Source of the DNA: Filimonas sp.
Lineage (GTDB): Bacteria; Bacteroidota; Bacteroidia; Chitinophagales; Chitinophagaceae
Assembly: GCA_017306865.1 (NCBI GenBank)
Contig: JAFKHH010000017.1
Coordinates: 35,453 to 99,452 of the forward strand
Direction of reading: 5' to 3'
Length of the DNA stretch: 64,000 nt
The notes beneath the pieces were generated by a model. That model searched no databases. It was not told the DNA's origin and worked only from the letters and a program-made list of their open reading frames with translations. Positions 40,264 through 53,239 of this stretch are shown piece by piece. A program made the position numbers and the translations under genes. Every line of letters starts with the position of its first letter. Positions within the stretch are counted from its first letter, which is position 1.

Positions 40264-41058
40264 ATGAACTTACAACTAGAAGGCAAGATAGCATTGGTTA
40301 CCGGCTCTACAGCGGGCATCGGCTTTGCTACAGCCAAACAATTATTGCAAGAGGGCGCTACGGTTTATATTAACGGCAGAACAGAACAACGCATACAGGA
40401 AGCAATTGCAAAATTGCAATCACTTGTACCCGGCGCAAAAGTACATGGCATAGCGGCAGACTTTTTAAATGTAGCCGATGTAAACAAGCTATTGCAGGCA
40501 TTACCGGAGGTAGACATTCTCATCAACAATGCCGGCATTTTTGAGCCCAAACCATTCGAGGAAATAACAGATGCGGACTGGCTTCGTTTTTATGAAATGA
40601 ATGTATTAAGCGGTGTCCGGCTCTCGCGCCAATACTTACCAGCTATGTTGAAGAAGAACTGGGGCAGGATTATTTTTATCTCCAGCGAATCAGCTATACT
40701 TATACCGGAAGAAATGATCCATTATGGCATGACTAAAACCGCACAACTGGCATTGAGCAGGGGTTTAGCAGAACTGACAAAGGGAACAGGTGTAACGGTG
40801 AATGCAGTATTGCCCGGGCCAACAAAATCTGAAGGTGTGGAAGATTTTATAGGAAGCATGGCGCAGCAGCAACAACAGACGAGGGAAAGTATAGAGAAAG
40901 ATTTTTTTACCACTGCACGCCCCAGCTCTTTAATACAACGATTTGCGACTACAGAGGAAGTAGCAAATCTTATTACGTATGTAGCAAGCCAGCTATCGTC
41001 TGCCACAAATGGTGCGGCGCTACGTGTAGATGGAGGTGTTGTAAAAACAATTATCTAG
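40264..41058 (+). CDS. SDR family oxidoreductase (classical)
   Basis: TGSTAGIGFATAKQL glycine motif and YGMTK catalytic YxxxK. Confidence 0.85.
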   Translation: MNLQLEGKIALVTGSTAGIGFATAKQLLQEGATVYINGRTEQRIQEAIAKLQSLVPGAKVHGIAADFLNVADVNKLLQALPEVDILINNAGIFEPKPFEEITDADWLRFYEMNVLSGVRLSRQYLPAMLKKNWGRIIFISSESAILIPEEMIHYGMTKTAQLALSRGLAELTKGTGVTVNAVLPGPTKSEGVEDFIGSMAQQQQQTRESIEKDFFTTARPSSLIQRFATTEEVANLITYVASQLSSATNGAALRVDGGVVKTII

Positions 41059-41086
41059 TCGTATCTACATAAAAAAATCACTGCCC

Positions 41087-41140
41087 GGAACTCCATCCCC
41101 TTATTGGAGGCCGGGCAATAATTTTTGTTTACCGGTGAAA
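41087..41140 (+). terminator. rho-independent terminator
   Basis: gcccgg...ccgggc hairpin followed by aataatttttgttt. Confidence 0.6.
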
Positions 41141-41281
41141 GTTTATTTTCTTCCGGCACCAGTTTCTTCCGTTACCGTAAAAAACCATTTCATCTAAGAC
41201 ACTGGTGAAGCAACCCTTCCGCCAATATTTAAAAAATATTTTTATTGTTGAACATCATCGTTTGCAAGCTGTTTCTTAACT

Positions 41282-42340
41282 GTGAATCATACGTCTATCA
41301 CAGTGCATAAGAATCGTCTTTATATCACTCTTTCCATATTTTTTTTCGTCATCTCCTGCACAAAGGGATTAGGACAGATGCAGGATTCCGTATTCCTGTA
41401 TAATGGGCAAATACTCATCGGTTCTATTAAAGGTGTAAGCCTGGGTGTACTCTCCTTCGACGATAAGGATCTAAAGATCGTAAACGTAAAATTGTATAAG
41501 ATAAAAAGACTGCGGGCAGATAATAATATTTTCAGAATTGAAACAATAGCCAACGATGTATATTATGGCACGATACAACCTTCAGACAAGAATGGCTATA
41601 TATCCATTGTAACGCCAGAAAAAAAAGCACGCATAGAGCTAACAGCTATTAATGTACTGATCTCGATGGATAAACATTTTTTCAAGCGGCTGAATGGTTC
41701 TGTGTCCTTAGGTTTTAGTTATACCAAATCAAGCCAGATAGGACAACTCAACCTAAGCGGCCAGGTCGGTTATGCCACCAGGCATATTGAAAACGAATTG
41801 TCGGTATCATCACTAAGTTCTATCGACACCTCTACGTTTTCGCGTACCAATGAGAATGTCGCTTTATTTTCAAACTACAACATTACGCCTGTATGGTTTG
41901 TAGCTGGCCAGCTAAACTACCAGCGCAACCTGGAATTGTCTATAAAGAAAAGATGGCAGCAGATCGCCGGTGGCGGTAAAAAACTGATCGTAACTAAGAA
42001 CATGACCTTACTTGCTATGTCCGGCCTTGCGTTTACACAGGAAACCAGTACAGACGATGTCAATAGCGGTTTATTGCTTGAGGTGCCGCTCATACTTCGT
42101 TATAATTTTTTCCAGTTCCAACACCCTAATTTACAGATATCTGCTAATCAGACCACGTACTTTGGCATTACCCAATCCGGGCGTATCCGCATGGACCTGA
42201 ACACCAGTTTTTCCTGGGAGCTGGTACGATACTTTTACCTGACTATGTCGCCGTACATGTCTTTTGATAACCGGCCGCCGGTAGGCACCGCGAGCAACGT
42301 AGACTACGGCCTGGTATTCGGCATATCGTATAAATTCTGA
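41282..42340 (+). CDS. hypothetical outer-membrane beta-barrel protein
   Basis: Signal peptide, alternating amphipathic beta-strand pattern, C-terminal ...YGLVFGISYKF with a terminal aromatic residue. Confidence 0.55.
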   Translation: MNHTSITVHKNRLYITLSIFFFVISCTKGLGQMQDSVFLYNGQILIGSIKGVSLGVLSFDDKDLKIVNVKLYKIKRLRADNNIFRIETIANDVYYGTIQPSDKNGYISIVTPEKKARIELTAINVLISMDKHFFKRLNGSVSLGFSYTKSSQIGQLNLSGQVGYATRHIENELSVSSLSSIDTSTFSRTNENVALFSNYNITPVWFVAGQLNYQRNLELSIKKRWQQIAGGGKKLIVTKNMTLLAMSGLAFTQETSTDDVNSGLLLEVPLILRYNFFQFQHPNLQISANQTTYFGITQSGRIRMDLNTSFSWELVRYFYLTMSPYMSFDNRPPVGTASNVDYGLVFGISYKF

Positions 42341-42464
42341 TGTAGCAGGTATGCGCTTTATTATCCCCCAACTTTGGGGTGTCTAAAAATTTCATCCTGC
42401 CGAAACTATTCAGCGCTATCATTTTTCAACTAAATTGCTGCCGTATTTAAACCAAAACAACCCT

Positions 42465-42818
42465 ATGCAATATTTGCCGGGCAAGCATATAATAGCAACC
42501 CTAGAGACTTCTGACCAAAAACGCATTGCCACTTACGCTGATTTTCAACAGGCCGTTGATCAGCTTATTCTGCAATATCAATTAAAAAAGCTGGGAGAAA
42601 TATATCATAATTTTTCACCCGCCGGTTTTACAGCGGTCATCTGTTTGAGTGAAAGCCATATCTCCATTCATACCTGGCCGGAACACAACAAGATAAACGT
42701 GGACATTTATCTTAGTAATTTTCAGCGTAATAACGATGGTACTGTACGTGCCATTTACGAATCGGTTGTTGCTTTTTTTGATGCAGCTATTACTCATGAA
42801 CAAACCATTACCCGTTAA
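42465..42818 (+). CDS. speH: S-adenosylmethionine decarboxylase proenzyme (pyruvoyl-dependent, SpeH/class-1 type)
   Basis: Self-processing motif LSESHISIHTWPEH. Length about 117 aa. Confidence 0.8.
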   Translation: MQYLPGKHIIATLETSDQKRIATYADFQQAVDQLILQYQLKKLGEIYHNFSPAGFTAVICLSESHISIHTWPEHNKINVDIYLSNFQRNNDGTVRAIYESVVAFFDAAITHEQTITR

Positions 42819-42821
42819 CAC

Positions 42822-44717
42822 ATGAGAGCAACAGGACTATACGCATGCCCCGACTGTGGCAAAACCATTACTTACAGGAATAATGAAACAAGGCTGAATG
42901 TCTGTACCTGCGGCACAATCGTAAACAGGCTGGAAAGCGATGACCTTGTTAAGAAATATTATTATTTAATACAAGAACATACTGATCTTATACAGGTTGG
43001 CACTACCGGTAAATACGACGGCAGGAAATTCGAAGTGCTGGGCCGCTTTCGCATGTGGTTTGAGGATAGTGCGTATAACTACTGGACTATTGTATTTGAA
43101 GATAACTCACTTGCCTATCTTGCAGAAGGCTATGGCCTCTATGCCATTTTACGCAGAACTACGTTCCTGCCGGTGAAGACAGCCGCCCTTCTTGCACTCA
43201 AGGCGGGTGATAGCATTCAACTGAAAACCCAGGCGCCGGATTACCTATTACAACGTAAAGATTTTTGTAAGCGGCTGGATGTACAGGGGGAGATCTGGAT
43301 GCCGGAGTGTAATGACCAGATCAGCCTCTTTGAGTTAGCCAGTATAACGGGCTTCCGTGCTGCAATATTTGAATTTCTGCCAGGCTATCTTGCCGGGTAT
43401 GATGTTGCTTATACTTCCTTCGACGATCTGCACCTGGCTCATATAAACGAGGAACCGTTACAAGGAAAAGACTTCAATTGTCCTAAATGTAAAGAAGCGA
43501 TCCGCGTAAAAACGTTTCCTTATGCACAGAGCTGTGGCTGCGTGAAATGCGGCACAAGGTTTAGTCTCGTTAATACAACTACGTTTCAAACATCCGGCAA
43601 GGATAAGAACAACAAGAATGACCTGGATATACCACTCGGTGTTACAGGCAAGATAAAGGGCATTGAATATGAAGTGATCGGTTATGCGTTGAAGAAAGAC
43701 CCCGAAGGTTACTTATGGAAAGAATACACCTTGCATAATAAGCGGGAAGGTTACGCTTTCCTGAGCGAGTTCAACGGCAACTGGATATATGTGCGGGAGA
43801 AAGGAGAAGCGCCTGTATTAAGCGACCTGCAAACAAATGACTTTACTTACGGCAAAGAACCATTTAAGTTATACAACCGCTACAGCATCTCGCTGGTAGA
43901 TGTTGCCGGAGAATTTCCGTATAACATATTTGACGCTGTAGAAACAAAGTCAGCAGAATTTATATCGCCGCCGGAAGTATGGATATATGAAAAAACGAAA
44001 GGCAATATCTGCTGGTTCTTAGGCGAGCACATCACCCCAAAAGATGTGGAAAAGGCTTACCCATTTCCTTTACCGTATAAGAACGGCACAGGCATGGTAG
44101 AGCCTACAGGCTATGTTAATCCCAATACGCTTATCTCTATAACCATTGTTGCCGTACTCATTATGATAGCTGTGCATCTGGGCATCAACATGACGCACGA
44201 TCCTAAAACTATCGTTAACTCGTCCTATCAGCTTACTGATACAACTACGGCTTCTTCTTTTGTAACAGAACCATTTACGCTCACAAAATGGCGGAGTAAC
44301 CTTGAGTTTGAAATAAGTGCCGACGTCGACAACTCGTGGTTCGAAATGTCTGCATCGCTGGTCAATGCAAAAACAAATGAAGAGTTTTCACTGGAACAGG
44401 GTGTAGAATACTATCATGGTTATGAAGATGGGGAGACCTGGAGCGAGGGCGGCCGTGTAGAGCGTGCTTACCTCAGCAGCATTCCTGCAGGCACGTATTT
44501 CCTGCGGATCGAGGGCTCAAGAGATACAAACCCGATGAACAAGATCAGCTCTTTCTTTGTAACCATCACCAACGATGTGGCAATGGACAGGAACCTGCTC
44601 ATTTTTATTATACCACTACTTATCTGGCCTGCGTTTAAATTATTCAGGATGAACCAGTCAGAACGAAGCAGGTGGTCTAACAGTAATTTTTCACCTTTTA
44701 CCCATAACGATGATTAA
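42822..44717 (+). CDS. Zn-ribbon / DUF4178 domain membrane protein (two CxxC...CxC ribbons, two DUF4178-like repeats, one TM helix, about 150-aa C-terminal domain)
   Basis: CPDCG...CTCG and CPKCK...CGCVKCG. Repeated YEVIGY/FEVLGR cores. TM helix ISITIVAVLIMIAVHLGI. The start is 4 nt after the speH stop. Confidence 0.65.
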   Translation: MRATGLYACPDCGKTITYRNNETRLNVCTCGTIVNRLESDDLVKKYYYLIQEHTDLIQVGTTGKYDGRKFEVLGRFRMWFEDSAYNYWTIVFEDNSLAYLAEGYGLYAILRRTTFLPVKTAALLALKAGDSIQLKTQAPDYLLQRKDFCKRLDVQGEIWMPECNDQISLFELASITGFRAAIFEFLPGYLAGYDVAYTSFDDLHLAHINEEPLQGKDFNCPKCKEAIRVKTFPYAQSCGCVKCGTRFSLVNTTTFQTSGKDKNNKNDLDIPLGVTGKIKGIEYEVIGYALKKDPEGYLWKEYTLHNKREGYAFLSEFNGNWIYVREKGEAPVLSDLQTNDFTYGKEPFKLYNRYSISLVDVAGEFPYNIFDAVETKSAEFISPPEVWIYEKTKGNICWFLGEHITPKDVEKAYPFPLPYKNGTGMVEPTGYVNPNTLISITIVAVLIMIAVHLGINMTHDPKTIVNSSYQLTDTTTASSFVTEPFTLTKWRSNLEFEISADVDNSWFEMSASLVNAKTNEEFSLEQGVEYYHGYEDGETWSEGGRVERAYLSSIPAGTYFLRIEGSRDTNPMNKISSFFVTITNDVAMDRNLLIFIIPLLIWPAFKLFRMNQSERSRWSNSNFSPFTHNDD

Positions 44718-44900
44718 CCCGTTTAACGTACGCTCAGGAATGCATCCATACAGGTGGTACCTGCTTTTTGTTGCCGGTGTAGCTATGCTAATGGCTTATG
44801 CCGACTATACAGGATGGCGCGTGCTCACTTTTAACCAACAGCAACACTGGAGCGCATCCGGCCCTTCAGGACATAAATAATAAAAACCAATACTACTCAT

Positions 44901-45107
44901 ATGGCACACTACATTTTTAACTCCGTTATTTTCTCCCTTATTGGCATTGCCATTCTCTTTGTAACATTTGCACTGATCGAATGGCTGACTCCGCGTCACA
45001 ATATCAGGAAGGAGATACTGGAAAAGAACAATATTGCTTTAGCAATACTGGCTGGCTTTTTTATGCTGGCTGTTGCGATCATTATAGCGTCTGCTATTCA
45101 CGGATAG
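44901..45107 (+). CDS. DUF350 small membrane protein (two TM helices)
   Basis: 68-aa ORF with two hydrophobic helices. Its stop is 7 nt before the aminopropyltransferase start. Confidence 0.6.
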   Translation: MAHYIFNSVIFSLIGIAILFVTFALIEWLTPRHNIRKEILEKNNIALAILAGFFMLAVAIIIASAIHG

Positions 45108-45113
45108 AATTAT

Positions 45114-46640
45114 ATGGAACAAAAAAAATCAAATGAGCAGTGGCTGTTGCTGACAGCAGTATTTATTATAGCCACATGCGGCCTTATTTATGAACTGGTA
45201 GCGGGTACACTTGCCAGCTATGTGTTAGGTGACAGTGTTACACAGTTCAGTACCATCATAGGTGTCTATCTTTTTTCGATGGGCGTTGGTTCCTTCCTGT
45301 CCAAGTATTTCAACAAGCATTTGCTTACCTGGTTCATACAAATAGAATTACTGGTTGGTTTGATAGGCGGCTTCAGCTCTATTATCTTGTTCCTGACCTT
45401 TCCTGTTGCAGCGTCGTTCAGGCTTATCTTATATGCGGTAGTGTTTTTCACCGGCATGTTAGTCGGCCTGGAAATACCTATCCTGATGCGCATACTGAAA
45501 GACAAAGTAGAATTTAAGGACCTCGTAAGTAAGGTATTCACATTTGACTATATTGGTGCTTTGCTTGCTTCGCTGATCTTTCCATTGCTACTGGTTCCCT
45601 ATTTAGGATTGATGCGCACCTCACTTTTCTTTGGCATTATGAATGTCTTGGTAGGCATGTACCTGCTGCAAAAATTCAAAACCGAGATCGTGCGTAACAC
45701 TGCGCTCAAAGTTGCTGCGGTATTGTTCCTGCTGGCAGAACTTGTAGCGTTTGTGCTGTCAGATAAAATCATGCACTTTAGCGAGAGTCTTGTATTCAAT
45801 GACCCGATTATTTACTCCACTTCTACCCCATACCAGCGTATAGCGATCACACGCAACAAAAAAGAATTGAAACTTTTCTTAAACGGCAACCTGCAATTCT
45901 CTTCTTTTGATGAATACCGGTACCACGAAGCATTGGTACATCCGCCTATGCTGGCAGCGCACAACCCAAAGAAAATATTGGTAATGGGTGGTGGCGACGG
46001 GCTGGCTGTAAGAGAAATATTGAAATACCCATCCGTAGAGAGTGTAACGCTGGTAGACCTGGATGCTGCTATGACAAAACTATTCAGCACGCAACCAGTC
46101 TTATTAAATATTAACCACTCTTCTTTCCTTAACCCGAAAGTAAAAATATACAACCAGGATGCTTTTATCTGGTTACGCAACAATCATGACGTGTACGATT
46201 GCGCTATTATAGATTTCCCTGACCCTTCTAACTTTTCTATTGGCAAACTATATAGCTATTCCTTTTATCAATTGCTGGGCCGTGCACTGTCGCCAAACGG
46301 AACAGCAGTAATACAAAGTACTTCACCTTATGTAGCGCCCAAAAGTTTCTGGTGTGTAGATGAAACACTGAAGGCTGCGGGGTTCGTTACCGTTCCTTAT
46401 CACAATTATGTTCCCTCCTTTGGTGAGTGGGGTTATATTATGGCCATGAAACAACCCGGCTACCAGGCTCCCGATAGTTTCCCTGCAGGTATGCGCTTTA
46501 TCAACAAAGAAACAATGCAGCAGATGCTAAACTTTCCGGAAGATATGAAGACGCACCAAAAGCTGGCGATCAACAGGCTGAACAATCAATCCTTGGTAGA
46601 ATATTTTGAGCAGGAATGGGGCAATTATCTTGATCAGTAA
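45114..46640 (+). CDS. speE: polyamine aminopropyltransferase (spermidine-synthase family) with an N-terminal multi-TM domain
   Basis: Six to seven TM helices, then the SpeE catalytic core (HPPMLAAHNPKKILVMGGGDGLAVREILKYPSVESVTLVDLD...IIDFPDPS). Confidence 0.85.
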   Translation: MEQKKSNEQWLLLTAVFIIATCGLIYELVAGTLASYVLGDSVTQFSTIIGVYLFSMGVGSFLSKYFNKHLLTWFIQIELLVGLIGGFSSIILFLTFPVAASFRLILYAVVFFTGMLVGLEIPILMRILKDKVEFKDLVSKVFTFDYIGALLASLIFPLLLVPYLGLMRTSLFFGIMNVLVGMYLLQKFKTEIVRNTALKVAAVLFLLAELVAFVLSDKIMHFSESLVFNDPIIYSTSTPYQRIAITRNKKELKLFLNGNLQFSSFDEYRYHEALVHPPMLAAHNPKKILVMGGGDGLAVREILKYPSVESVTLVDLDAAMTKLFSTQPVLLNINHSSFLNPKVKIYNQDAFIWLRNNHDVYDCAIIDFPDPSNFSIGKLYSYSFYQLLGRALSPNGTAVIQSTSPYVAPKSFWCVDETLKAAGFVTVPYHNYVPSFGEWGYIMAMKQPGYQAPDSFPAGMRFINKETMQQMLNFPEDMKTHQKLAINRLNNQSLVEYFEQEWGNYLDQ

Positions 46641-46645
46641 TTTGT

Positions 46646-48247
46646 ATGAAGAGAAGAAAATTTATTCAACTAGGTAGCGCGCTTGCAGGTTATGGCCTGC
46701 TGGCTACGTCGTGCAGCAATCATACAAAAAGAAAAATTGCAGGGGAGATTATAGGTGCATCTTCTCAAACCGGGCACTTGCTGCGCGATAAGCAATTTGA
46801 AACGCCGCCAATCAGTGAGCAAAAAGAGGTAGTGATTGTTGGAGGTGGTATCAGTGGTTTGTCGGCCGCAAGATGGCTGCACCGGAATGGACAAACGGAT
46901 TTTCTTTTATTGGACCTGGAAAAACATACAGGCGGCAATGCGTCCAGCGGTACAAATGCAGTATCTGCCTATCCGTGGGGTGCGCACTATATTCCCATTC
47001 CCAACAATGACTTGCCGGAGTACACAGACTTCTTAACGGAGTGCAATGTAATTACAGGGCGTGATGAGAAAGGCTTACCTGTTTATAATGAATACCATCT
47101 TTGCAGCGATCCGCAGGAACGTTTATTTATTAATGGTAACTGGCAGGATGGGCTGATCCCACAATATGGTTTATCGCCAGAAGAGAAGAGTGAAGTAAAA
47201 CGCTTCCTGCAACAGATGCAAACTTTCCGCGAAGCAAAGGGCAATGATGGTAAAGATGCTTTTGCCATTCCGGTAGACAGTTCCAGTAACGATCCATTAT
47301 ATACTTCGCTGGATAATATAACGATGGCTGCATGGTTGCAACAGGAGAACTATCACAGCAAATATGTGCAATGGTATGCGAACTATTGCACACGCGATGA
47401 CTTTGGTACACGTAGCGATGTGATCAGCGCATGGACGGGCATTCATTACTTTGCTGCGCGAAAGGGAAATGGCGCCAATGCCAAACATGATGATGTGCTT
47501 ACCTGGCCGCAGGGCAATGGATGGCTGGCAGAACAGTTAAGTTCACCATTGCAACCGTACATCCGTACGAATGCACTGGCAGTTAAGATCATTCCTGGTG
47601 ACAAGCAGGCAACAGTTGTCTACTACGATATAAACACGCATACGTTAAAAGCAGTGGCTGCGAAGCAATGTATTTTGGCTACACCGCAATTTATAAACAA
47701 TCGTTTGCTGGATAATAAAGTACGTACAGCATTGGTAGACGCACACTTACACTATGCACCGTGGATGGTGGCTAACTTAACGGTGTCTCAACTAAAGGAA
47801 CGTGATGGCGCACCACTTAGCTGGGACAATGTGTTGTATGAAAGTTTCGGACTTGGTTATGTAGATGCTACGCATCAGCAATTGCAACAGCTAAAACCGA
47901 AAAGAGTATTGACTTACTACCTGCCACTATCAACTAACACGCCGAAAGAAGAACGATTGGCAGCTTATAAGCGCTCACACGAGGACTGGATAAACATTTT
48001 ATTGGGAGATCTAAAGAAGGTACACCCGGACATTGAAGAAAAAATAGAACGTGCAGATGTTATGGTCTGGGGGCACGCTATGGCGCAGCCGCTTCCCGGG
48101 CTGATGCATGGCGATACCCGGCGAAGATTGCAGGAGTCTATCAATAATCAAATACATTTTGCACATACTGATCTTGCGGGCATCAGCATATTTGAAGAGG
48201 CCTTTTATCAGGGTATTGGTGCAGCAAAAAAAGTAATAGGATCATGA
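46646..48247 (+). CDS. Tat-signal FAD-dependent amine-oxidase-like oxidoreductase (possible lipoprotein)
   Basis: Twin-arginine motif RRKFIQLGSALAGYGLLATSC, then dinucleotide-binding VVIVGGGISGLSAARWL...LLDLE. Start is 6 nt after the speE stop. Confidence 0.75.
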   Translation: MKRRKFIQLGSALAGYGLLATSCSNHTKRKIAGEIIGASSQTGHLLRDKQFETPPISEQKEVVIVGGGISGLSAARWLHRNGQTDFLLLDLEKHTGGNASSGTNAVSAYPWGAHYIPIPNNDLPEYTDFLTECNVITGRDEKGLPVYNEYHLCSDPQERLFINGNWQDGLIPQYGLSPEEKSEVKRFLQQMQTFREAKGNDGKDAFAIPVDSSSNDPLYTSLDNITMAAWLQQENYHSKYVQWYANYCTRDDFGTRSDVISAWTGIHYFAARKGNGANAKHDDVLTWPQGNGWLAEQLSSPLQPYIRTNALAVKIIPGDKQATVVYYDINTHTLKAVAAKQCILATPQFINNRLLDNKVRTALVDAHLHYAPWMVANLTVSQLKERDGAPLSWDNVLYESFGLGYVDATHQQLQQLKPKRVLTYYLPLSTNTPKEERLAAYKRSHEDWINILLGDLKKVHPDIEEKIERADVMVWGHAMAQPLPGLMHGDTRRRLQESINNQIHFAHTDLAGISIFEEAFYQGIGAAKKVIGS

Positions 48248-49317
48248 GCGCCGCAACTACACAACAGCCCTGGCTTGGCAAGGCATGGACGGATATTGTA
48301 TTTATACTTCTTCCACCTTTTGCCTGTTTGTTATTTATCACGCTCTTCCCATCCTTATTTCAGAACAATAATAATATACCGGATGCATGGTGGGTTATAC
48401 TGATCTTACTGGTAGACGTGGCGCATGTGTACAGCACTTTGTATCGCACTTACTTTGATAAAAATTATTTGCAGCAGGAACGTAGCCTATTACTAACAAT
48501 CCCGTTTGTGGCATTTATTGCCGGAGTATTATTGTACACTATTAATGACATGTTGTTCTGGCGTCTGCTGGCATACTTAGCAGTCTTTCATTTTATACGC
48601 CAGCAGTATGGTTTTATGCGGCTTTATAGTAGGAAGGAACATGCGCCCGCCTGGTGCAAGCGTATTGATACGTTTACTATTTATTACGCCACTATTTACC
48701 CGCTACTTTACTGGCACTTTACAGGACAGAAAAATTTCAACTGGTTTGTTGAAAATGATTTCTATTATTTATCAGCCAGTAATTTACTCACTTGCTTCAA
48801 GTGGTTGTATTACATATTACTCCTTATTTATTTTATAAAAGAATGCTGGCTGGCCCTGATAACAAAGACTATTAACTTTCCACGCATAGCAGTTATTGCC
48901 GGCACTATTGCTTCCTGGTATTTTGGCATTGTTTATTTCAATGGCGATATGGCTTTTACTTTATTGAATGTCATTAGCCATGGCATACCTTATATGGCTT
49001 TGATGTGGCTATATGGCAAAAGAAACTACAGCACTTCGGCAAGAGCAGGCAAGCTACTGCGCTATGTCTTCAGCACATATGGCATCCTGCTTTTCCTCGG
49101 TATTATTTTTCTTCTGGCGTATATAGAAGAGGGGCTGTGGGACCTAACCCTTTGGAAAGAACACGCTTCTTTGTTTTCCATCTTCCGTCAAACGAACGTA
49201 TCATTCAGTCAAATATGGCTACAATTTCTCGTACCATTACTCGCATTACCGCAAATCACGCATTATGTGATCGATGGATTTATCTGGCGAATAAAAAAGG
49301 GTGAAGTGAAAGTGTAA
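48244..49317 (+). CDS. hypothetical polytopic membrane protein (8-9 TM), translationally coupled by an ATGA overlap to the oxidase gene
   Basis: ORF start overlaps the upstream stop. Highly hydrophobic and Trp/Tyr-rich. No recognisable family. Confidence 0.6.
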   Translation: MSAATTQQPWLGKAWTDIVFILLPPFACLLFITLFPSLFQNNNNIPDAWWVILILLVDVAHVYSTLYRTYFDKNYLQQERSLLLTIPFVAFIAGVLLYTINDMLFWRLLAYLAVFHFIRQQYGFMRLYSRKEHAPAWCKRIDTFTIYYATIYPLLYWHFTGQKNFNWFVENDFYYLSASNLLTCFKWLYYILLLIYFIKECWLALITKTINFPRIAVIAGTIASWYFGIVYFNGDMAFTLLNVISHGIPYMALMWLYGKRNYSTSARAGKLLRYVFSTYGILLFLGIIFLLAYIEEGLWDLTLWKEHASLFSIFRQTNVSFSQIWLQFLVPLLALPQITHYVIDGFIWRIKKGEVKV

Positions 49318-49319
49318 TG

Positions 49320-49870
49320 TTTATCATCCCAGTCTCCGACTGGGATGCCTTGGCTTTTCGACTCCGTCGAATAGATTCTATACTGGCGCAGGCCTCCCGG
49401 CCTGTGTCTGCTTATTACTACAACATAATAACGAAAAGCCTACTGCCTGCAGTAAGATGATTAGTGACAACAAAGCACAGGCCGGGAGGCCTGCGCCAGT
49501 ATAAGCCCCGGCGTGTGTCTTCACGCGCCGGTTGGTAGCTGGTTCGTGGGGACACGAACCAGGGCGAAAAGTCCTAGAGGGACGCCAGATTGGTAGTTTA
49601 ATAATTCACACAAGTAGTTGAGCTCCGGAGGAGCGACAGAATGAATCGTTTTGCAAGGGAATAATTCTGTCGCCGCGCTGCGGCTCTGATTGGTGTGGGA
49701 TATATCTTTCTACCATTCTATCGAGCCTCCGGCTCTCTGTCATAGCAAGTACACGCAATATTTTTTGCTGAGATTATATAGCAACGTCTTTCGAACACCT
49801 ATAGCCGGGAGGCCTGCGCCAGTAAAAAAACGATGTGGGTATAAAGTAGGTCAGGAGACCAGAACATGAT
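49320..49870. repeat. structured non-coding region. 26-bp perfect inverted repeat (tactggcgcaggcctcccggcctgtg, 49381-49406 and 49477-49502) with a third copy at 49800-49826, plus several additional hairpins.
   Basis: Seen directly in sequence. No ORFs. GC-rich relative to its surroundings. Confidence 0.6.
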
Positions 49871-49875
49871 TGCAT

Positions 49876-49910
49876 ATAAATAAAAAAGCCTGCTTAAGCA
49901 GGCTTATAAC
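49876..49910. terminator. bidirectional terminator hairpin (aaaaaagcctgcttaagcaggcttat) downstream of mqo
   Basis: Perfect palindrome flanked by an A-run on one side and a T-rich stretch on the other. Confidence 0.7.
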
Positions 49911-49947
49911 AATTTAACAATGTAACTATTGAACAATGTATCTCTCA

Positions 49948-51432
49948 CTATTTTATTCCCAGCACGTCACTAGACCATTTGCGCATGTCGCGGCATAGTT
50001 CTGCTTCAGACGCGAGTGACTTACCATAAGAAGGGATCATTTGTTGTAATCTTACTTTCCACCCTGCTGCTTCTTTTTTGAAGCAACGCTCTACGAGGCC
50101 AAGCATAATAGCAACTGCGGTAGAGGCTCCTGGTGATGCGCCCAGCAATGCTGCGATAGAGCCATCTGCTGCGCTTACTACTTCGGTACCAAACTCCAAT
50201 ACGCCACCTTCTTCTTCATCTTTCTTGATCACCTGTACACGTTGCCCTGCTATTTCCAGCTCCCAGTCTTCCATTTTCGCATTCGGCATAAACTCTCTTA
50301 GTGCTTCCAGCCTGTCTTCAGGAGATTGGCGAACCTGGTTGATGAGGTATTTTGTAAGTGGAATGTTATTGTAACCTGCTGCCATCATAGGACGGATGTT
50401 GCTCACTTTTACAGAGCGGAACAGATCGAGATAAGAACCGTTTTTCAGAAACTTAGTAGAGAAGCCTGCATACGGCCCAAACAACAATGCTTTCTGTCCG
50501 TTGATCACGCGTGTATCCAGGTGAGGCACAGACATTGGCGGCGCGCCTACAGAGGCTTTGCCATATACTTTTGCATTGTGCTTTTCTATAATGTCGGGGT
50601 TAGTACATTTAAGCCACTGACCACTCACAGGGAAACCACCAAACCCTTTTCCTTCCGGTATATCTGATTTAAGCAGCAATGGCAATGAACCACCACCAGC
50701 TCCTATGAATACAAACTTTGTATTGACAATACGTTTCTCCCCGGTCGCCATGTCTTTCACCTTCAGGTCCCACGTACCATCATCTTCACGGTCTATGTCG
50801 CGCACTTCATGGTTAAAGTACATGGAAACGCCGTCTTGTTTTTTCAGGTAGTTAAACATACTGCGTGTAAGCGCACCGAAGTTTACATCGGTTCCAGTTT
50901 CCATACGTGTAGCAGCCAGCTTCTGATCACCTGTGCGTCCTTCCATTACAACCGGCATCCACTCTGACAATTTTGTATTGTCTTCCGAATATTCCATACC
51001 CTCGAAAAGATGACTTTTTGTAAGTGCATCGTGCCTTTTCTTCAGGTAAGAAACATTATCATCACCCCACACAAAACTCATGTGTGGAATGCTGCGTATA
51101 AATGATTGTGGATTATCTAAGATGCGTTGCTGTACAAGATATGCCCAGAACTGCCTCGACAGATCGAATGATTCTGCAATCTTGATGGCCTTGCTAATAT
51201 CTACCGAGCCGTTCTTCTCAGGTGTGTAGTTAAGTTCACAAAAAGCGGCGTGACCTGTGCCGGCATTGTTCCATGCATCGGAACTTTCTGCTGCCGCTAC
51301 ATCCAGCCTTTCAAAAACTTCAATTGTCCAATCTGGTTGCAACTGTTTTAAAAGTACGCCTAACGTTGCGCTCATAATGCCTGCCCCTATCAGTACCACA
51401 TCCGGCCCTTTCTTAATATCACTAGTGCTCAT
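49948..51432 (-). CDS. mqo: malate:quinone oxidoreductase
   Basis: N-terminus [44 protein letters not shown] and a 494-aa length match Mqo. Confidence 0.9.
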
Positions 51433-51737: not shown

Positions 51738-52286
51738 ATGGCCACGCTTATCAAACTGGTAAGAGGTAAACACATTGTGGAATTCGACACGGGAAAATTC
51801 GACAATTGGTGTGTCTTTCTTACCAGGGAAAACCAATATCGCTATGCCCCCAAAGACCTGGAATATTATGCTTTGCTAAAAGCACTTGCGCGCACGCACG
51901 GGCATGAGAAGATCTATAACGACTTCCTGGCGCTTTATGAATGCACCGGCAGTAATATTGACGCTGCAGTATCTGAGCAGATCACAACACTTGCCAACAC
52001 ATATACTACCGACGCAGAAGAGGCTGACACATGGTTTACCATTATCTATGGCAACATGGTTGCGGAAGAGAATAAACCGCGTGCTATGCTGAAGAAGAAA
52101 ATAAAACGGTTAGCCATGCACTTGTTGCTGATAGAAGATACAGCCCCGCAGGATGTGGTGAACTTCTGTAAAGGAAAATCGTGGAGGGAGCTACAACATA
52201 TTATGCAAGAAAAGGGGTTGCTGGCTTTACTTTTCATAATTGGATACGAGGAGTTCAAATATCTCACCCCGTTTGGATGGAACTGA
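51738..52286 (+). CDS. hypothetical protein (182 aa), convergent with the Dam gene and overlapping its 3-prime end by 60 nt
   Basis: Protein-like composition. No family recognised. Confidence 0.45.
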   Translation: MATLIKLVRGKHIVEFDTGKFDNWCVFLTRENQYRYAPKDLEYYALLKALARTHGHEKIYNDFLALYECTGSNIDAAVSEQITTLANTYTTDAEEADTWFTIIYGNMVAEENKPRAMLKKKIKRLAMHLLLIEDTAPQDVVNFCKGKSWRELQHIMQEKGLLALLFIIGYEEFKYLTPFGWN

Positions 52287-53138
52287 ATTGATGGCACGCT
52301 TAGCCCTCACCCTGTCTATGTACATATTTTCCTGGGAGAATAGCTCATCAAAGAAGTTGTCCTCCGGGTCTATATTCTTCGGATCAGAATTACTGAGCAG
52401 CCATTTTGCATCCGCACCGGTAAGGTCGTTACAGAAATCCCGCAGGCGTATTTGTTCCGTATCATCAAACACACTATTTGCATACGCATTGAAAGAAGCC
52501 GTCTTGCTGATAGGCTTATATGGCGGATCAAGATAGTAGAAACAATTTCCATCTGCATACGCAAGCGTTTGCGCGTAGTCACCCTGGAAGACAGTCACTT
52601 TTCTAAGCACTTTATGCACTGCCAGTATCTTTCGCGTATCGCAGATGTTGGGCTTGATATACCGGCCAAAAGGTACATTAAAAACATTCTGGCTGTTTAC
52701 ACGATACAGGCCATTGAAACATGTCTTATTCAAAAAGATGAAATGCGCAGTCCTTACAAGCGTATCCATCGGCGTAAAATTATAGGCGTCCCTTTTTTCA
52801 AGATAAAGCGACAAGCGCTGCTCATTGGAGCGGCACGCATAATAAGCCTCATGAAAGCCTGATAAGATCTTCAGTAAATTTTCCGGCTCTGCTTTTATAA
52901 CAGCATATGCATTGATAAGATCTGTATTTACATCACTAATAACGGCGCTCTTTACTGAAGGGAATTGCTGCAGGAACCAAAACATAACAGCGCCACTTCC
53001 AATAAAAGGCTCTACATAAATCAGATCGGAATTACTGCACACTATGCCAGGTAATGCAGTGTGTATAGAAGAGATAAGTTGCCCTTTGCCCCCAGCCCAC
53101 TTCAGAAAAGGTTTAGCTTTCGTTGCTGTCGCGTACAT
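52227..53138 (-). CDS. dam: DNA adenine methyltransferase (Dam / D12 class N6-adenine MTase), orphan
   Basis: N-terminal FLKWAGGKGQL motif I and catalytic DPPY (YYLDPPYKP). No cognate endonuclease gene seen. Confidence 0.85.
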   Translation of the reverse strand: MYATATKAKPFLKWAGGKGQLISSIHTALPGIVCSNSDLIYVEPFIGSGAVMFWFLQQFPSVKSAVISDVNTDLINAYAVIKAEPENLLKILSGFHEAYYACRSNEQRLSLYLEKRDAYNFTPMDTLVRTAHFIFLNKTCFNGLYRVNSQNVFNVPFGRYIKPNICDTRKILAVHKVLRKVTVFQGDYAQTLAYADGNCFYYLDPPYKPISKTASFNAYANSVFDDTEQIRLRDFCNDLTGADAKWLLSNSDPKNIDPEDNFFDELFSQENMYIDRVRAKRAINSVPSKRGEIFELLVSNYEK

Positions 53139-53239
53139 TCTTGATAAGCAGTATGTGTTTACAATTTTAGGTATTCGCATGCGAATAAAAAAAATTGCTT
53201 TCAGATCGAAACGCAAGCTGGGCGCGGATTCTGATCAAA

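What the first reader, a model, noticed from the sequence alone, without database searches (positions are those of the whole stretch)
42465..49317. Six-gene translationally coupled operon linking SAM decarboxylase and a membrane-anchored aminopropyltransferase to DUF4178/DUF350 envelope-stress-type proteins, a Tat-signal amine oxidase and an unknown polytopic membrane protein
All six ORFs are co-oriented. Five of the gaps are between -4 and +7 nt (an ATGA overlap at 48244; 4-nt, 7-nt and 6-nt gaps elsewhere). The remaining gap, 183 nt between the DUF4178 protein and DUF350, is still co-oriented, and an outer-membrane beta-barrel gene sits 95 nt upstream on the same strand. SpeH plus SpeE would supply decarboxylated SAM and aminopropyl transfer. 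Here SpeE carries a 6-7-helix membrane domain. It is flanked by a Zn-ribbon/DUF4178 protein with one TM helix and a 68-aa two-helix DUF350 protein. Both of those families otherwise sit in PspA/envelope-stress neighbourhoods, such as E. coli yjfJKLMC and B. subtilis ydjGHI. A twin-arginine flavin amine oxidase follows; it could oxidise or remodel the polyamine product on the periplasmic side. The last gene, a 357-aa polytopic membrane protein, matches no family I can name. The combination suggests a dedicated envelope-associated polyamine synthesis/modification/export module. It is reminiscent of the P. aeruginosa PA4773-PA4775 surface-spermidine operon but has a different and larger gene set. 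I cannot recall a described system with this composition.
Basis: partly seen in the sequence, partly recalled or inferred. Interest (0 to 1): 0.78.

Follow-up and report, generated by a model that had tools for sequence, protein, structure and literature searches.

The report
Seven-gene envelope aminopropyltransferase operon, hidden lysine-tailed gene
This is a real, widely conserved operon of a partly described but functionally unsolved bacterial system, and its supposedly empty 183-base gap holds a seventh, always-present tiny membrane protein ending in His-Lys that may be the long-sought target of the polyamine-type enzyme.

Summary
The block is not fortuitous. In 71 genome loci with enough flank, DUF4178, SpdSyn, oxidase and last gene are colinear in 71/71, and all genes are colinear in at least 62.

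Three corrections:
- The operon has seven genes. The "183-nt gap" encodes a conserved 56-aa protein (44710-44880) with one TM helix and a Gly/Ser-rich tail. It ends in His-Lys-stop in all 71 loci.
- The upstream DUF481 barrel is not conserved with the block.
- The core association (AdoMetDC, membrane-fused aminopropyltransferase, DUF350, DUF4178, polyamine oxidase) is already in the literature (Li et al. 2019; Ravi et al. 2024), with function unknown.

Lys-ended tails on exported or membrane-anchored proteins recur beside membrane-fused aminopropyltransferases in proteobacterial and PspA-type clusters. Charge distribution places the catalytic domain, the tail and the Tat oxidase in the periplasm.

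My best, inferred, reading: the enzyme aminopropylates the tethered C-terminal lysine, and the oxidase with its 10-TM partner processes the product. I rate this a new variant of a known kind.

The parts
42465..42818 (+). Class 1b AdoMetDC-like pyruvoyl decarboxylase, 117 aa (an alternative TTG start lies at 42435). The self-processing Glu-Ser-His and HTWPE motifs are kept, but the canonical catalytic Cys is replaced (DIYLSN).
   Evidence: PF02675 at 6e-21. TIGR03330 scores 72.7, below its cutoff of 75.65. Best PDB matches are 2iii and 1tlu. Cys to Ser in 69/70 orthologues, while the proteobacterial cluster versions keep Cys-Gly.
42822..44717 (+). 631-aa membrane protein. Architecture: [Zn-ribbon + DUF4178-like] x2 (predicted cytoplasmic), TM 437-455, a ~135-aa predicted periplasmic domain, TM 592-610, and a short Arg-rich tail.
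   Evidence: PF13785 at 1.8e-14 for aa 272-406. Internal repeat at E = 6e-4. TM segments. Present in 71/71 loci. No PDB relative by sequence.
44710..44880 (+). Newly recognised seventh gene. It encodes a 56-aa protein with one TM helix and a Gly/Ser/Asn/Tyr/His-rich tail of about 30 aa that ends in invariant His-Lys-stop. It overlaps the DUF4178 stop by 8 nt.
   Evidence: A homologous gene is called in Chitinophaga agri. An HK-ended small ORF sits at this position in all 71 loci. About 0.3% of background ORFs end in HK. The conserved NPF...RW motif upstream of Met11 supports the start at 44710. No Pfam family. A 46-aa version is annotated 'hypothetical protein [Filimonas sp.]'.
44901..45107 (+). 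DUF350 (YjfL-family) protein, 68 aa, two TM helices.
   Evidence: PF03994 at 1.1e-13. TM segments. Present in 67/71 loci and absent in four loci (three Mucilaginibacter, one Chitinophagaceae MAG).
45114..46640 (+). Membrane-fused aminopropyltransferase, 508 aa. It has a 7-TM N-terminal domain and a spermidine-synthase-like catalytic domain that the positive-inside rule places in the periplasm.
   Evidence: NF002956 at 1.6e-205, above cutoff, and PF01564 at 1.2e-36. PDB relatives are 7xif, thermospermine synthase 6bq2 and 1uir. The YHE, GGGDG, DLD and DFPDP motifs are invariant or nearly so, and the loop charge pattern holds over 80 orthologues.
46646..48247 (+). Tat-signal (KRRKF) lipoprotein (Cys23) of the flavin amine-oxidase fold, 533 aa.
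   Evidence: PF13450 and PF01593. Cys23 is invariant and the RR motif conserved. AF2 pLDDT 85. Foldseek top hits are bacterial MAO 8p84, putrescine oxidase 2yg3 and spermidine dehydrogenase SpdH 7d9f, at E about 1e-23 and 14-18% identity.
48244..49317 (+). 357-aa, 10-helix membrane protein of an unnamed family. His61, His116, His158, His246, His340, Asp344 and Gln120 are invariant. Its start overlaps the oxidase stop (ATGA).
49325..49347 (+). 10-bp stem-loop 8 nt after the last stop codon, a likely end of the transcription unit.
   Evidence: Terminator-like scan and sequence. The next gene downstream is convergent (Mqo).

Best explanation
The locus is a seven-gene operon. It is the Bacteroidota version of the 'AdoMetDC + membrane-fused aminopropyltransferase + DUF350/DUF4178' system, whose substrate is unknown.

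Most likely mechanism (inferred, not shown):
1. The cytoplasmic AdoMetDC-like enzyme makes the aminopropyl donor.
2. The 7-TM domain of the fusion protein delivers the donor to its catalytic domain on the outer face of the inner membrane.
3. That domain aminopropylates the epsilon-amine of the invariant C-terminal lysine of the small membrane-anchored protein. A lysine side chain mimics putrescine, and the product is a protein-tethered spermidine-like group.
4. The Tat-exported flavin amine-oxidase lipoprotein then oxidises, removes or remodels this group. The 10-TM His-rich protein is its membrane partner, for example as electron acceptor.
5. DUF4178 and DUF350 act as membrane scaffold or sensor subunits.

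Shown: gene content, conservation, family membership, the Lys-ended tail and the signal peptides. Inferred: topology, donor export, the lysine as acceptor, and the roles of the oxidase and the last gene.
For: 1. Operon reality. DUF4178, SpdSyn, oxidase and last gene are colinear in 71/71 loci. All seven genes are colinear in 62/71 by tblastn, and the small gene is found in the other nine by ORF inspection. All junctions are 20 nt or less.
2. The small gene ends in HK-stop in all 71 loci, although identity to the window copy across 35 representative homologues, proteobacterial ones included, is only 14-45%.
3. The same theme appears with membrane-fused SpdSyn in other architectures:
   - Ralstonia '...GGFSGGHK', Burkholderia '...SSYGSHK', Novosphingobium '...HTGPSHK'.
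   - Tritonibacter '...NSNRVK', in a cluster without an oxidase.
   - PspA/TelA-type clusters, where a 510-aa lipoprotein in the same position ends '...RN(R/M)GP..GK' in 4/4 loci. One further locus has two lipoprotein paralogues ending '...GFGGRGK'.
   - No such protein accompanies the oxidase + last-gene pair where SpdSyn is absent (L084).
4. Periplasmic convergence:
   - SpdSyn loop K+R means over 80 orthologues are 0.04 / 1.7 / 0.8 / 4.3 / 1.0 / 3.05, followed by an acidic post-TM7 segment. This gives N-in, 7 TM, catalytic domain out.
   - The small protein's N-flank is more basic than its C-flank in 47 sequences and less basic in 9, of 73.
   - The equivalent tails in other clusters sit on lipoproteins.
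   - The oxidase has a Tat signal in Bacteroidota, Ralstonia, Burkholderia and L084.
5. The catalytic motifs of the aminopropyltransferase are invariant or nearly so, so it is an active enzyme. The speE equivalog model is nevertheless failed. Ravi et al. state that these systems may aminopropylate 'other substrates'.
6. In the sister DUF350 operon of E. coli, YjfC is a peptide-spermidine ligase (RefSeq name; Pederick et al. 2023, cited). Its neighbour YjfM is a membrane-anchored protein with a Gly/Ser/Arg-rich C-terminal tail. This is a precedent for attaching a polyamine to a peptide C-terminus.
7. The oxidase fold is closest to putrescine oxidase, MAO and SpdH.
Against: - There is no biochemical evidence. 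The lysine-acceptor idea rests on conservation and gene context only.
- Topology comes from charge counting, not from a dedicated predictor or an experiment.
- A periplasmic aminopropyltransferase needs export of decarboxylated AdoMet, which is unprecedented.
- The AdoMetDC homologue lacks the canonical catalytic Cys, so even the donor is uncertain.
- An invariant C-terminal His-Lys could instead be a docking or regulatory motif, a metal ligand, or a peptidoglycan-attachment residue.
- E. coli YjfC is cytoplasmic while YjfM's tail would be exported, so the analogy is imperfect.
- The last gene's role is a guess. It has no structural relative.
Confidence: 0.4

Rival explanations
1. The operon is a dedicated module that synthesises a free polyamine (spermidine or a relative) from putrescine-type diamines at the membrane, then oxidises or remodels it in the periplasm and exports it. 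This would resemble the surface spermidine of the P. aeruginosa PA4773-PA4775 operon.
For: - Intact aminopropyltransferase motifs.
- An adjacent AdoMetDC homologue.
- The oxidase fold is nearest putrescine oxidase and spermidine dehydrogenase.
- The oxidase is Tat-exported.
- The closest structures to the catalytic domain are polyamine-forming enzymes.
Against: - By my recollection of Li et al. 2019 (paper not held), species with this fusion lack spermidine, and neither the fusion nor its catalytic domain complements E. coli speE. Ravi et al. paraphrase this as 'aminopropylation of other substrates'.
- The speE equivalog TIGR00417 scores 140 against a cutoff of 250.
- The model gives no role to the universally conserved Lys-ended small protein, nor to DUF4178 and DUF350.
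- No diamine-forming decarboxylase lies in the block.
Confidence: 0.22
2. A membrane-lipid or envelope-polymer modifying system. The 7-TM domain binds a lipid or glycan with a primary amine, for example phosphatidylethanolamine, ornithine/serine lipids or a lipid A amine. The enzyme aminopropylates it to change surface charge. The small protein, DUF4178 and DUF350 would be regulatory or assembly subunits of a PSP-like envelope-stress device.
For: - The catalytic domain is fused to a polytopic membrane domain and predicted to face outward.
- DUF350 and DUF4178 recur with PspA, band-7 and TelA genes in other lineages.
- The last gene is a His-rich polytopic protein that could be a lipid-active enzyme.
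Against: - No lipid-metabolism gene lies in the block.
- This Bacteroidota block has no PspA or band-7 gene.
- The model does not explain why the only invariant features of the small protein are its terminal His-Lys and its membrane anchor.
Confidence: 0.15
3. The small protein is an inner-membrane-to-peptidoglycan tether in the manner of Braun's lipoprotein, which ends in Tyr-Arg-Lys and is linked through that lysine (my own knowledge). The polyamine-type enzymes would act on something else or tune that linkage.
For: - The C-terminal [Y/F]-H-K resembles Lpp's Y-R-K.
- The tail is predicted periplasmic and is 22-45 residues long.
- The equivalents in other clusters are lipoproteins.
- Polyamines covalently bound to peptidoglycan are known in Selenomonas (cited in PMC8503589).
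Against: - No L,D-transpeptidase gene lies in the block.
- The tail protein tracks the aminopropyltransferase gene across four architectures.
- The tail protein is absent where only the oxidase and last gene occur.
Confidence: 0.08
4. Fortuitous juxtaposition of unrelated genes.
For: None beyond the lack of transcript data.
Against: Same order and strand in 71/71 loci from at least four orders of Bacteroidota plus a Leptospiraceae and an FCPU426 MAG. Junctions are overlapping or tiny.
Confidence: 0.01

Closest known systems
AdoMetDC + membrane-fused spermidine-synthase-like protein + DUF350 clusters (Li, Kurihara, Kim, Liang and Michael 2019, Biochem J 476:2579), and the '7TM-spermine/spermidine synthase, DUF350, DUF4178' operons of Ravi et al. 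2024 (mSystems, PMC11237479)
   Same: A class 1b AdoMetDC homologue, an N-terminal polytopic membrane domain fused to a SpdSyn-like domain (NF002956), DUF350 and DUF4178. Some described variants also carry a polyamine oxidase. The function and the aminopropyl acceptor are unknown.
   Different: - No PspA/CesT, band-7 or TelA gene here.
- The DUF4178 protein is a duplicated Zn-ribbon form with two TM helices.
- DUF350 is the minimal 2-TM form.
- The AdoMetDC has Ser in place of the catalytic Cys.
- A 10-TM His-rich protein is translationally coupled to the oxidase.
- The small Lys-ended protein is not mentioned in the passages of Ravi et al. that I read. I could not read Li et al.
E. coli yjfIJKLMC operon (PspA-family YjfJ, DUF350 YjfL, DUF1190 YjfM, peptide-spermidine ligase YjfC)
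   Same: A DUF350 membrane protein sits next to a polyamine-handling enzyme and to a membrane-anchored protein with a Gly/Ser-rich C-terminal tail. YjfC attaches spermidine to peptide C-termini (Pederick et al. 2023, cited). The end product would be a peptide bearing a spermidine-like group, as proposed here.
   Different: The chemistry differs: an ATP-grasp amide ligation of ready-made spermidine, against dcAdoMet-dependent aminopropyl transfer. There is no AdoMetDC, oxidase, DUF4178 or 10-TM protein. YjfM ends in ...HWGG, not in Lys.
P. aeruginosa PA4773-PA4775 (speD2-speE2) surface-spermidine operon
   Same: An adjacent AdoMetDC and aminopropyltransferase pair tied to envelope protection (Johnson et al. 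2012, cited; details from my own knowledge).
   Different: It is reported to make free spermidine on the cell surface. It has no DUF4178, DUF350, oxidase or 10-TM genes. I did not compare the sequences.
P. aeruginosa spermidine dehydrogenase SpdH and bacterial putrescine/monoamine oxidases
   Same: The oxidase model has the same two-domain flavin amine-oxidase fold (Foldseek E about 1e-23, TM about 0.65-0.69). From my own knowledge, SpdH is also an exported polyamine-oxidising flavoprotein that uses a haem rather than O2 alone.
   Different: Only 14-18% identity. Sequence searches match only the FAD-binding N-terminus. No haem domain is present. Here a separate membrane protein is coupled to it.
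Lysine-linked polyamine modifications (hypusine/deoxyhypusine; silaffin long-chain polyamine lysines of diatoms)
   Same: A protein lysine epsilon-amine carries an aminoalkyl or polyamine chain. This is the chemistry proposed here.
   Different: Deoxyhypusine synthase uses spermidine and NAD, not dcAdoMet. The silaffin enzymes are not identified. The comparison rests on my own knowledge and nothing was tested.

Membership tests
Membrane-fused aminopropyltransferase / AdoMetDC / DUF350 / DUF4178 system (Li 2019; Ravi 2024) | SpdSyn-like domain fused to an N-terminal polytopic (about 7-TM) membrane domain | tested here: met
   NF002956 at 683 bits, above the 472 cutoff. Seven hydrophobic segments before the PF01564 domain.
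Membrane-fused aminopropyltransferase / AdoMetDC / DUF350 / DUF4178 system (Li 2019; Ravi 2024) | Class 1b AdoMetDC homologue in the same cluster | tested here: met
   PF02675 at 6e-21, first gene of the block. Present in 68/71 loci. Caveat: the catalytic Cys is replaced.
Membrane-fused aminopropyltransferase / AdoMetDC / DUF350 / DUF4178 system (Li 2019; Ravi 2024) | DUF350 and DUF4178 proteins in the cluster | tested here: met
   PF03994 at 1.1e-13 and PF13785 at 1.8e-14. Present in 67/71 and 71/71 loci respectively.
Membrane-fused aminopropyltransferase / AdoMetDC / DUF350 / DUF4178 system (Li 2019; Ravi 2024) | PspA + CesT/Tir dyad, or a band-7/SHOCT replacement (Ravi et al. groups) | tested here: not met
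   None in the block or its neighbours, which are DUF481, SDRs, DoxX and Mqo. Such genes are present in the Ralstonia (band-7-SHOCT) and Alteromonas (TelA-like) versions.
Membrane-fused aminopropyltransferase / AdoMetDC / DUF350 / DUF4178 system (Li 2019; Ravi 2024) | No spermidine made; the acceptor is not putrescine | not testable with these tools
   Needs polyamine analysis and enzyme assays. Li et al. 2019 was not readable here.
Canonical spermidine synthase SpeE (TIGR00417) | Score above the equivalog cutoff | tested here: not met
   139.9 bits against a cutoff of 249.55.
Canonical spermidine synthase SpeE (TIGR00417) | dcAdoMet-binding GGGDG motif and catalytic Asp residues | tested here: met
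   YHE, GGGDG, DLD and DFPDP are conserved in 77-80 of 80 orthologues. Alignment to 7xif and 6bq2.
Class 1b AdoMetDC (TIGR03330 / SpeH) | Score above the equivalog cutoff | tested here: not met
   72.7 bits against a cutoff of 75.65.
Class 1b AdoMetDC (TIGR03330 / SpeH) | Self-processing Glu-Ser site giving the pyruvoyl group, plus HTWPE | tested here: met
   E63-S64-H65 and H69-T-W-P-E73 are conserved in 68-70 of 70 orthologues.
Class 1b AdoMetDC (TIGR03330 / SpeH) | [quoted passage not shown] | tested here: not met
   Ser84 in the window and in 69/70 Bacteroidota-type orthologues (L-S-N). Cys is kept in T. maritima and in the four proteobacterial cluster versions. The need for this Cys is stated in PMC10407285.
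Flavin amine oxidase (PF01593) | Pfam score above the gathering cutoff and the two-domain FAD amine-oxidase fold | tested here: met
   30.0 bits against 19.8 over residues 69-531. Foldseek hits MAO, putrescine oxidase and SpdH at probability 1.00.
Tat-exported lipoprotein | Twin-arginine motif followed by a hydrophobic stretch and a lipobox Cys | tested here: met
   MKRRKFIQ...LLATSC. R3 and F6 are at least 90% conserved and Cys23 is invariant in 48 sequences. Tat motifs are also present in the Ralstonia, Burkholderia and L084 homologues. No dedicated Tat or LipoP predictor was available.
E. coli yjfKLMC-type peptide-spermidine ligase operon | GspS-like ATP-grasp ligase (YjfC/YgiC) | tested here: not met
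   No ATP-grasp domain in any of the seven proteins.
Braun-lipoprotein-like peptidoglycan tether | Covalent link of the C-terminal Lys to peptidoglycan by an L,D-transpeptidase | not testable with these tools
   Only the C-terminal aromatic-basic-Lys resemblance was seen. No YkuD-family gene lies in the block.

The most novel reading that the evidence does not exclude
The system is a periplasm-facing 'writer/eraser' for a previously unknown protein modification, aminopropylation of a C-terminal lysine.
- The substrate is a dedicated small membrane-anchored protein or, in other lineages, a lipoprotein tail.
- The writer is the membrane-fused aminopropyltransferase. Its 7-TM domain exports or channels decarboxylated AdoMet.
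- The eraser or processor is the Tat flavin amine oxidase, with a new 10-TM His-rich redox or enzyme partner.

If true, this would identify the missing substrate of the 'polyamine-independent' AdoMetDC systems present in thousands of bacterial genomes.
Probability: 0.28. Interest if true: 0.9.

Novelty: new variant of a known kind. Interest (0 to 1): 0.7.

Why it matters
- **An open question.** Membrane-fused aminopropyltransferase/AdoMetDC clusters occur in thousands of bacterial genomes. They are the textbook case of an AdoMetDC with no known polyamine product, and their substrate has been open since 2019.
- **A concrete candidate.** This analysis offers a cheap-to-test candidate: a universally co-encoded membrane-tethered tail ending in lysine.
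- **A compartment.** It also points to the periplasmic face as the site of action.
- **Consequences if right.** It would add a new protein modification and a new use of decarboxylated AdoMet outside the cytoplasm. It would also give a functional handle on four orphan families: DUF4178, DUF350, the small tail protein and the 10-TM His-rich protein. These families are linked to envelope-stress loci in many pathogens and plant-associated bacteria, for example Ralstonia solanacearum.
- **Value in any case.** The seven-gene definition and the Cys-to-Ser AdoMetDC variant correct current annotation.

Tried and rejected
- **Li et al. 2019.** The paper could not be read (no PMC id in reference lists). 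Its content is cited from memory and through Ravi et al.
- **Long 'fusions' of the last gene.** The fusions with an M1 peptidase (P0202) and with LptD (P0263) were judged likely gene-call run-ons. I did not use them as Rosetta-stone evidence.
- **Sigma-70 promoter scan.** It gave no more sites than shuffles (21 against 22.1) and is not applicable to Bacteroidota promoters. No promoter is claimed.
- **Rfam on 41000-50000.** Only sub-threshold chance hits to plant and animal families.
- **Large protein-database search with the small-protein alignment.** It returned only 13 hits, because such short, low-complexity queries share few exact words. It therefore says nothing about the true spread of the family.
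- **DUF481 barrel as part of the operon.** Rejected, since it is absent upstream of the block in 80/80 related loci.
- **Small ORF starting at Met11 (46 aa, as annotated in a Filimonas MAG).** Rejected in favour of 44710, because the NPF motif before Met11 is conserved in orthologues.

Full report
**1. What is in the sequence**

Seven ORFs lie on the + strand between 42465 and 49317, not six.
- Gene 1, 42465-42818: AdoMet_dc, PF02675 at 6e-21.
- Gene 2, 42822-44717: a 631-aa protein with DUF4178, PF13785 at 1.8e-14.
- Gene 4, 44901-45107: DUF350, PF03994 at 1.1e-13.
- Gene 5, 45114-46640: Spermine_synth PF01564 at 1.2e-36, and NCBIfam NF002956 at 683 bits against a cutoff of 472.
- Gene 6, 46646-48247: NAD_binding_8 plus Amino_oxidase.
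- Gene 7, 48244-49317: no Pfam or NCBIfam family.

The junctions are +3, -8, +20, +6, +5 and -4 nt. A 10-bp hairpin follows the last stop codon by 8 nt. The next gene downstream is a convergent malate:quinone oxidoreductase.

The upstream gene, 124 nt away, is a DUF481 beta-barrel. A 46-aa version of gene 3 is annotated as a hypothetical protein in a Filimonas sp. MAG, and the best hits of genes 6 and 7 are Chitinophagaceae. The window therefore comes from a Filimonas-like member of the Chitinophagaceae.

**2. Is the arrangement more than chance?**

I anchored a search of one genome per GTDB species on the last gene. At least 597 loci matched, and the best 80 were fetched with 10-kb flanks. 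They cover:
- Chitinophagaceae (Chitinophaga, Niastella, Sediminibacterium and others);
- Sphingobacteriales (Pedobacter, Mucilaginibacter, Solitalea);
- Cytophagales (Dyadobacter, Hymenobacter, Pontibacter, Rufibacter, Fibrisoma, Cyclobacteriaceae);
- a Flavobacteriales MAG, a Leptospiraceae MAG and an FCPU426 MAG.

Among the 71 loci with at least 6.5 kb upstream of the anchor, tblastn with the window proteins found:

| Gene | Loci with a hit |
|---|---|
| DUF4178 | 71/71 |
| SpdSyn | 71/71 |
| Oxidase | 71/71 |
| Last gene | 71/71 |
| AdoMetDC | 68/71 |
| DUF350 | 67/71 |

Gene order and strand match the window in every locus except L029, where the best DUF350 hit lies upstream of DUF4178. 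All seven genes are colinear in 62 loci. The nine apparent exceptions were inspected by hand. All nine have the small gene. Four (three Mucilaginibacter, one Chitinophagaceae MAG) truly lack DUF350. The DUF481 gene was never found upstream. The block is a conserved unit and the barrel is not part of it.

**3. The seventh gene**

Chitinophaga agri has a called 97-aa gene between DUF4178 and DUF350 whose C-terminal half aligns with window 44710-44880.

A scan of all loci found, in 68 of 68 with DUF350 next to SpdSyn, a small ORF that ends 11-158 nt (median 34) before the DUF350 match. Every one terminates in His-Lys-stop. The seven loci inspected by hand, which include the four that lack DUF350, have one too.

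Position -3 is Tyr in 49 of 69 copies. Position -4 is Phe, Gly or Tyr. The rest of the protein is one hydrophobic helix followed by a tail of 22-45 residues rich in Gly, Ser, Asn, Tyr, His and Arg. Identity to the window copy across the 35 aligned representatives is only 14-45%.

About 0.3% of other ORFs of 35 aa or more in the same loci end in HK (17 of roughly 6200). A conserved NPF...RW motif precedes Met11 in several orthologues, so the start at 44710 is preferred to the annotated Met11. No Pfam family matches the protein.

**4. The same theme outside Bacteroidota**

I searched the fusion protein by tblastn against PLSDB plasmids and chromids, and an Alteromonas-type fusion against metagenome contigs.

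| Source | Arrangement | C-terminal tail |
|---|---|---|
| Ralstonia solanacearum megaplasmid | DUF350, band-7/SHOCT, DUF4178, a 61-aa 'hypothetical protein', speD; 5 kb away, the fusion followed by a Tat oxidase | ...GGGFSGGHK |
| Burkholderia stagnalis | small ORF between DUF4178 and AdoMetDC | ...SSYGSHK |
| Novosphingobium | DUF4178, small ORF, DUF350, SpdSyn, oxidase, AdoMetDC | ...HTGPSHK |
| Tritonibacter mobilis | no oxidase; small ORF in the same slot | ...NSNRVK |
| PspA/TelA-type clusters (Alteromonas, three marine contigs) | a 510-aa lipoprotein occupies the slot between DUF4178 and DUF350; one pair is only 33% identical overall | ...RNRGPSSGK...RNRGPGKGK...RNMGPGKGK |
| A further locus (L096) | two lipoprotein paralogues after the fusion gene | ...SRGFGGRGK in both |

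In the opposite direction, a distant member of the last-gene family sits directly after an oxidase homologue with no SpdSyn nearby (L084). That locus has no such tail protein. The Lys-ended tail therefore tracks the aminopropyltransferase, not the oxidase or the last gene. The preceding His is invariant in the oxidase-containing clusters sampled and is absent from the oxidase-free ones.

**5. The individual proteins**

*Aminopropyltransferase.*
- The hydropathy of 80 aligned orthologues shows seven membrane segments.
- The mean K+R counts per segment are: N-terminus 0.8, loop 1-2 0.04, loop 2-3 1.7, loop 3-4 0.8, loop 4-5 4.3, loop 5-6 1.0, loop 6-7 3.05. The 17 residues after TM7 have 1.1 K+R and 3.0 D+E.
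- By the positive-inside rule this is N-in with the catalytic domain outside. This is an inference from sequence, not a measurement.
- The YHE, GGGDG, DLD and DFPDP motifs are invariant or nearly so.
- The nearest solved structures are polyamine aminopropyltransferases and thermospermine synthase.
- The speE equivalog model is failed, at 140 bits against a cutoff of 250.

*AdoMetDC homologue.*
- The Glu-Ser-His processing site and HTWPE are conserved in 68-70 of 70 orthologues.
- The canonical active-site Cys (T. maritima FTCG) is Ser in 69/70 Bacteroidota-type orthologues (motif LSN). The four proteobacterial cluster versions keep Cys-Gly.
- A different Cys lies four residues before the pyruvoyl Ser in 62/70.
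- PMC10407285 calls that cysteine 'required for decarboxylation'.
- The TIGR03330 score of 72.7 is just below its cutoff of 75.65. The identity of the donor is therefore less secure than the name suggests.

*Oxidase.*
- The signal is MKRRKFIQ...LLATSC. The RR motif is conserved and Cys23 invariant in 48 homologues.
- Tat motifs are also present in Ralstonia, Burkholderia and L084.
- The AF2 model has pLDDT 85.
- Foldseek places it with a bacterial monoamine oxidase, putrescine oxidase, SpdH spermidine dehydrogenase and MAO-B, at E about 1e-23 and 14-18% identity.
- Sequence searches of the PDB match only the FAD-binding N-terminus.

*Last gene.*
- The family is large: over 4200 hits at 90% clustering and 1135 clusters at 50%.
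- The AF2 model has pLDDT 86 and ten long helices.
- No solved relative was found.
- Over 66 sequences at 30-50% identity, the invariant residues are His61, His116, His158, His246, His340, Asp344, Gln120 and four Tyr. Asp58 and Glu295-Glu296 are nearly invariant. This looks like a metal or cofactor site inside the membrane.
- Its ATGA coupling to the oxidase, and the oxidase-plus-last-gene pairs elsewhere (L083, L084), suggest a two-protein module. A separate standalone member and a tandem pair also exist.

*DUF4178 protein.* Two [Zn-ribbon + DUF4178-like] units (internal similarity E = 6e-4), then a TM helix, a 135-aa domain with no family, a second TM helix and an Arg-rich end.

**6. What is already known**

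Ravi et al. 2024 describe six-to-seven-gene operons. [quoted passage not shown] They also describe variants without the dyad that encode an AdoMetDC and a polyamine oxidase.

They suggest the systems monitor polyamine concentration or the 'aminopropylation of other substrates', citing Li et al. 2019. From my own memory of the Li et al. abstract:
- thousands of class 1b AdoMetDCs co-occur with such fusions;
- the decarboxylases are active;
- spermidine is absent;
- the fusion does not complement an E. coli speE mutant;
- DUF350 is noted as a clustered gene.

I could not obtain that paper. DUF4178 occurs in only this one work in the searchable library. I found no report of protein aminopropylation by these enzymes.

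In E. coli, the DUF350 gene yjfL lies between yjfK and yjfM. It is followed by yjfC, now named 'peptide--spermidine ligase' (Pederick et al. 2023, cited). YjfM is a membrane-anchored protein with a Gly/Ser/Arg-rich C-terminal tail.

**7. Interpretation**

The 'new system' claim is too strong, because the core is a described system with an unsolved function.

The Bacteroidota form is a distinct variant:
- no PSP-type partner;
- a duplicated Zn-ribbon DUF4178 protein;
- a minimal DUF350;
- a Cys-less AdoMetDC;
- an added 10-TM protein coupled to the oxidase.

The most informative new fact is the universally present tail protein. Its features are a tether (TM helix or lipid), a flexible low-complexity linker and one invariant terminal residue, a lysine. 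That design is what one expects of a substrate or carrier arm presented to an active site. A lysine side chain is a four-carbon primary amine, the same pharmacophore as putrescine. I therefore propose the lysine as the aminopropyl acceptor.

The charge-based topologies, the lipoprotein versions of the tail and the Tat signal of the oxidase all place the chemistry on the periplasmic side. That in turn implies the 7-TM domain moves the donor across the membrane. The oxidase could remove the aminopropyl group in the manner of a polyamine oxidase, or convert its terminal amine to an aldehyde. The His-rich partner could take the electrons.

Every step after 'the genes are conserved together' is inference. 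I put the whole chain at about 0.4. The strict version, lysine aminopropylation in the periplasm with an oxidase eraser, I put at about 0.28. The rivals are a free polyamine product, a lipid or envelope-polymer acceptor, and a peptidoglycan tether. They are laid out with their tests in the rival section.

**8. Verdict**

This is a real, conserved, seven-gene operon. It is a new variant of a known but functionally unsolved kind. It carries a previously unremarked component that turns an open question into a one-experiment test.

Noticed in passing
window 42465-42818 (residue 84 of the 117-aa protein): The AdoMetDC homologue has Ser where the canonical catalytic Cys sits (DIYLSN against FTCG). 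This holds in 69/70 Bacteroidota-type orthologues. A compensating-looking Cys lies four residues before the pyruvoyl Ser in 62/70. The proteobacterial cluster versions keep the canonical Cys.
   Followed up: partly
window 49318-49947: The 630-nt spacer after the operon is full of strong hairpins. The motif GGCGCAGGCCTCCCGGCCTGTG occurs as an inverted pair at 49385-49408 and 49474-49497, forming a ~120-nt hairpin. A further partial reverse-complement copy (CCGGGAGGCCTGCGCC) lies near 49805-49822. Rfam gives only a sub-threshold chance hit (plant miRNA model). This could be a REP-like element or a small RNA.
   Followed up: partly
window 41282-42340: The DUF481 outer-membrane beta-barrel gene lies 124 nt upstream on the same strand. 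It is not found upstream of the block in any of 80 related loci, so it is probably an independent gene.
   Followed up: yes
L028, L033, L038, L051 (three Mucilaginibacter; L051 is a Chitinophagaceae MAG): These four loci have lost DUF350 but keep the small His-Lys-ended gene between DUF4178 and the aminopropyltransferase. DUF350 is therefore dispensable where the tail protein is not.
   Followed up: partly
L084 8167-11161; L083; L085 746-3047; L082: Distant members of the last-gene family (33-36% identity) occur in three other settings: directly after a Tat oxidase homologue without any aminopropyltransferase genes (L084, L083), as a tandem pair (L085), and alone (L082). The oxidase and the 10-TM protein look like a separable module.
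   Followed up: partly
L099 4888-5526 (E. coli K-12 yjfM): YjfM lies next to DUF350 YjfL and the peptide-spermidine ligase YjfC. It has a very basic N-terminus, a hydrophobic segment with Cys, and a Gly/Ser/Arg-rich C-terminal tail ending ...ARGHWGG. It might be the natural peptide substrate of YjfC.
   Followed up: no
P0202 (1278 aa) and P0263 (990 aa): Two database proteins join a last-gene-family domain to an M1 aminopeptidase and to LptD respectively. These are probably run-on gene calls, but they were not checked at the DNA level.
   Followed up: no
L090 (Tritonibacter mobilis plasmid p2) 6554-10515: This is a minimal cluster of two DUF4178 genes, a small protein ending ...RVK, DUF350 and the fusion protein. 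No oxidase or AdoMetDC lies nearby. It is the only case sampled in which the residue before the terminal Lys of a small-ORF form is not His (the lipoprotein forms end GK).
   Followed up: partly
window 51738-53216: A DUF7004 protein (1.9e-58) partly overlaps a convergent Dam-type D12 N6-adenine DNA methyltransferase gene. This is possibly a mobile or restriction-modification-related islet just beyond the Mqo gene.
   Followed up: no
window 683-6847: A 2054-aa ORF at the start of the window was not examined.
   Followed up: no
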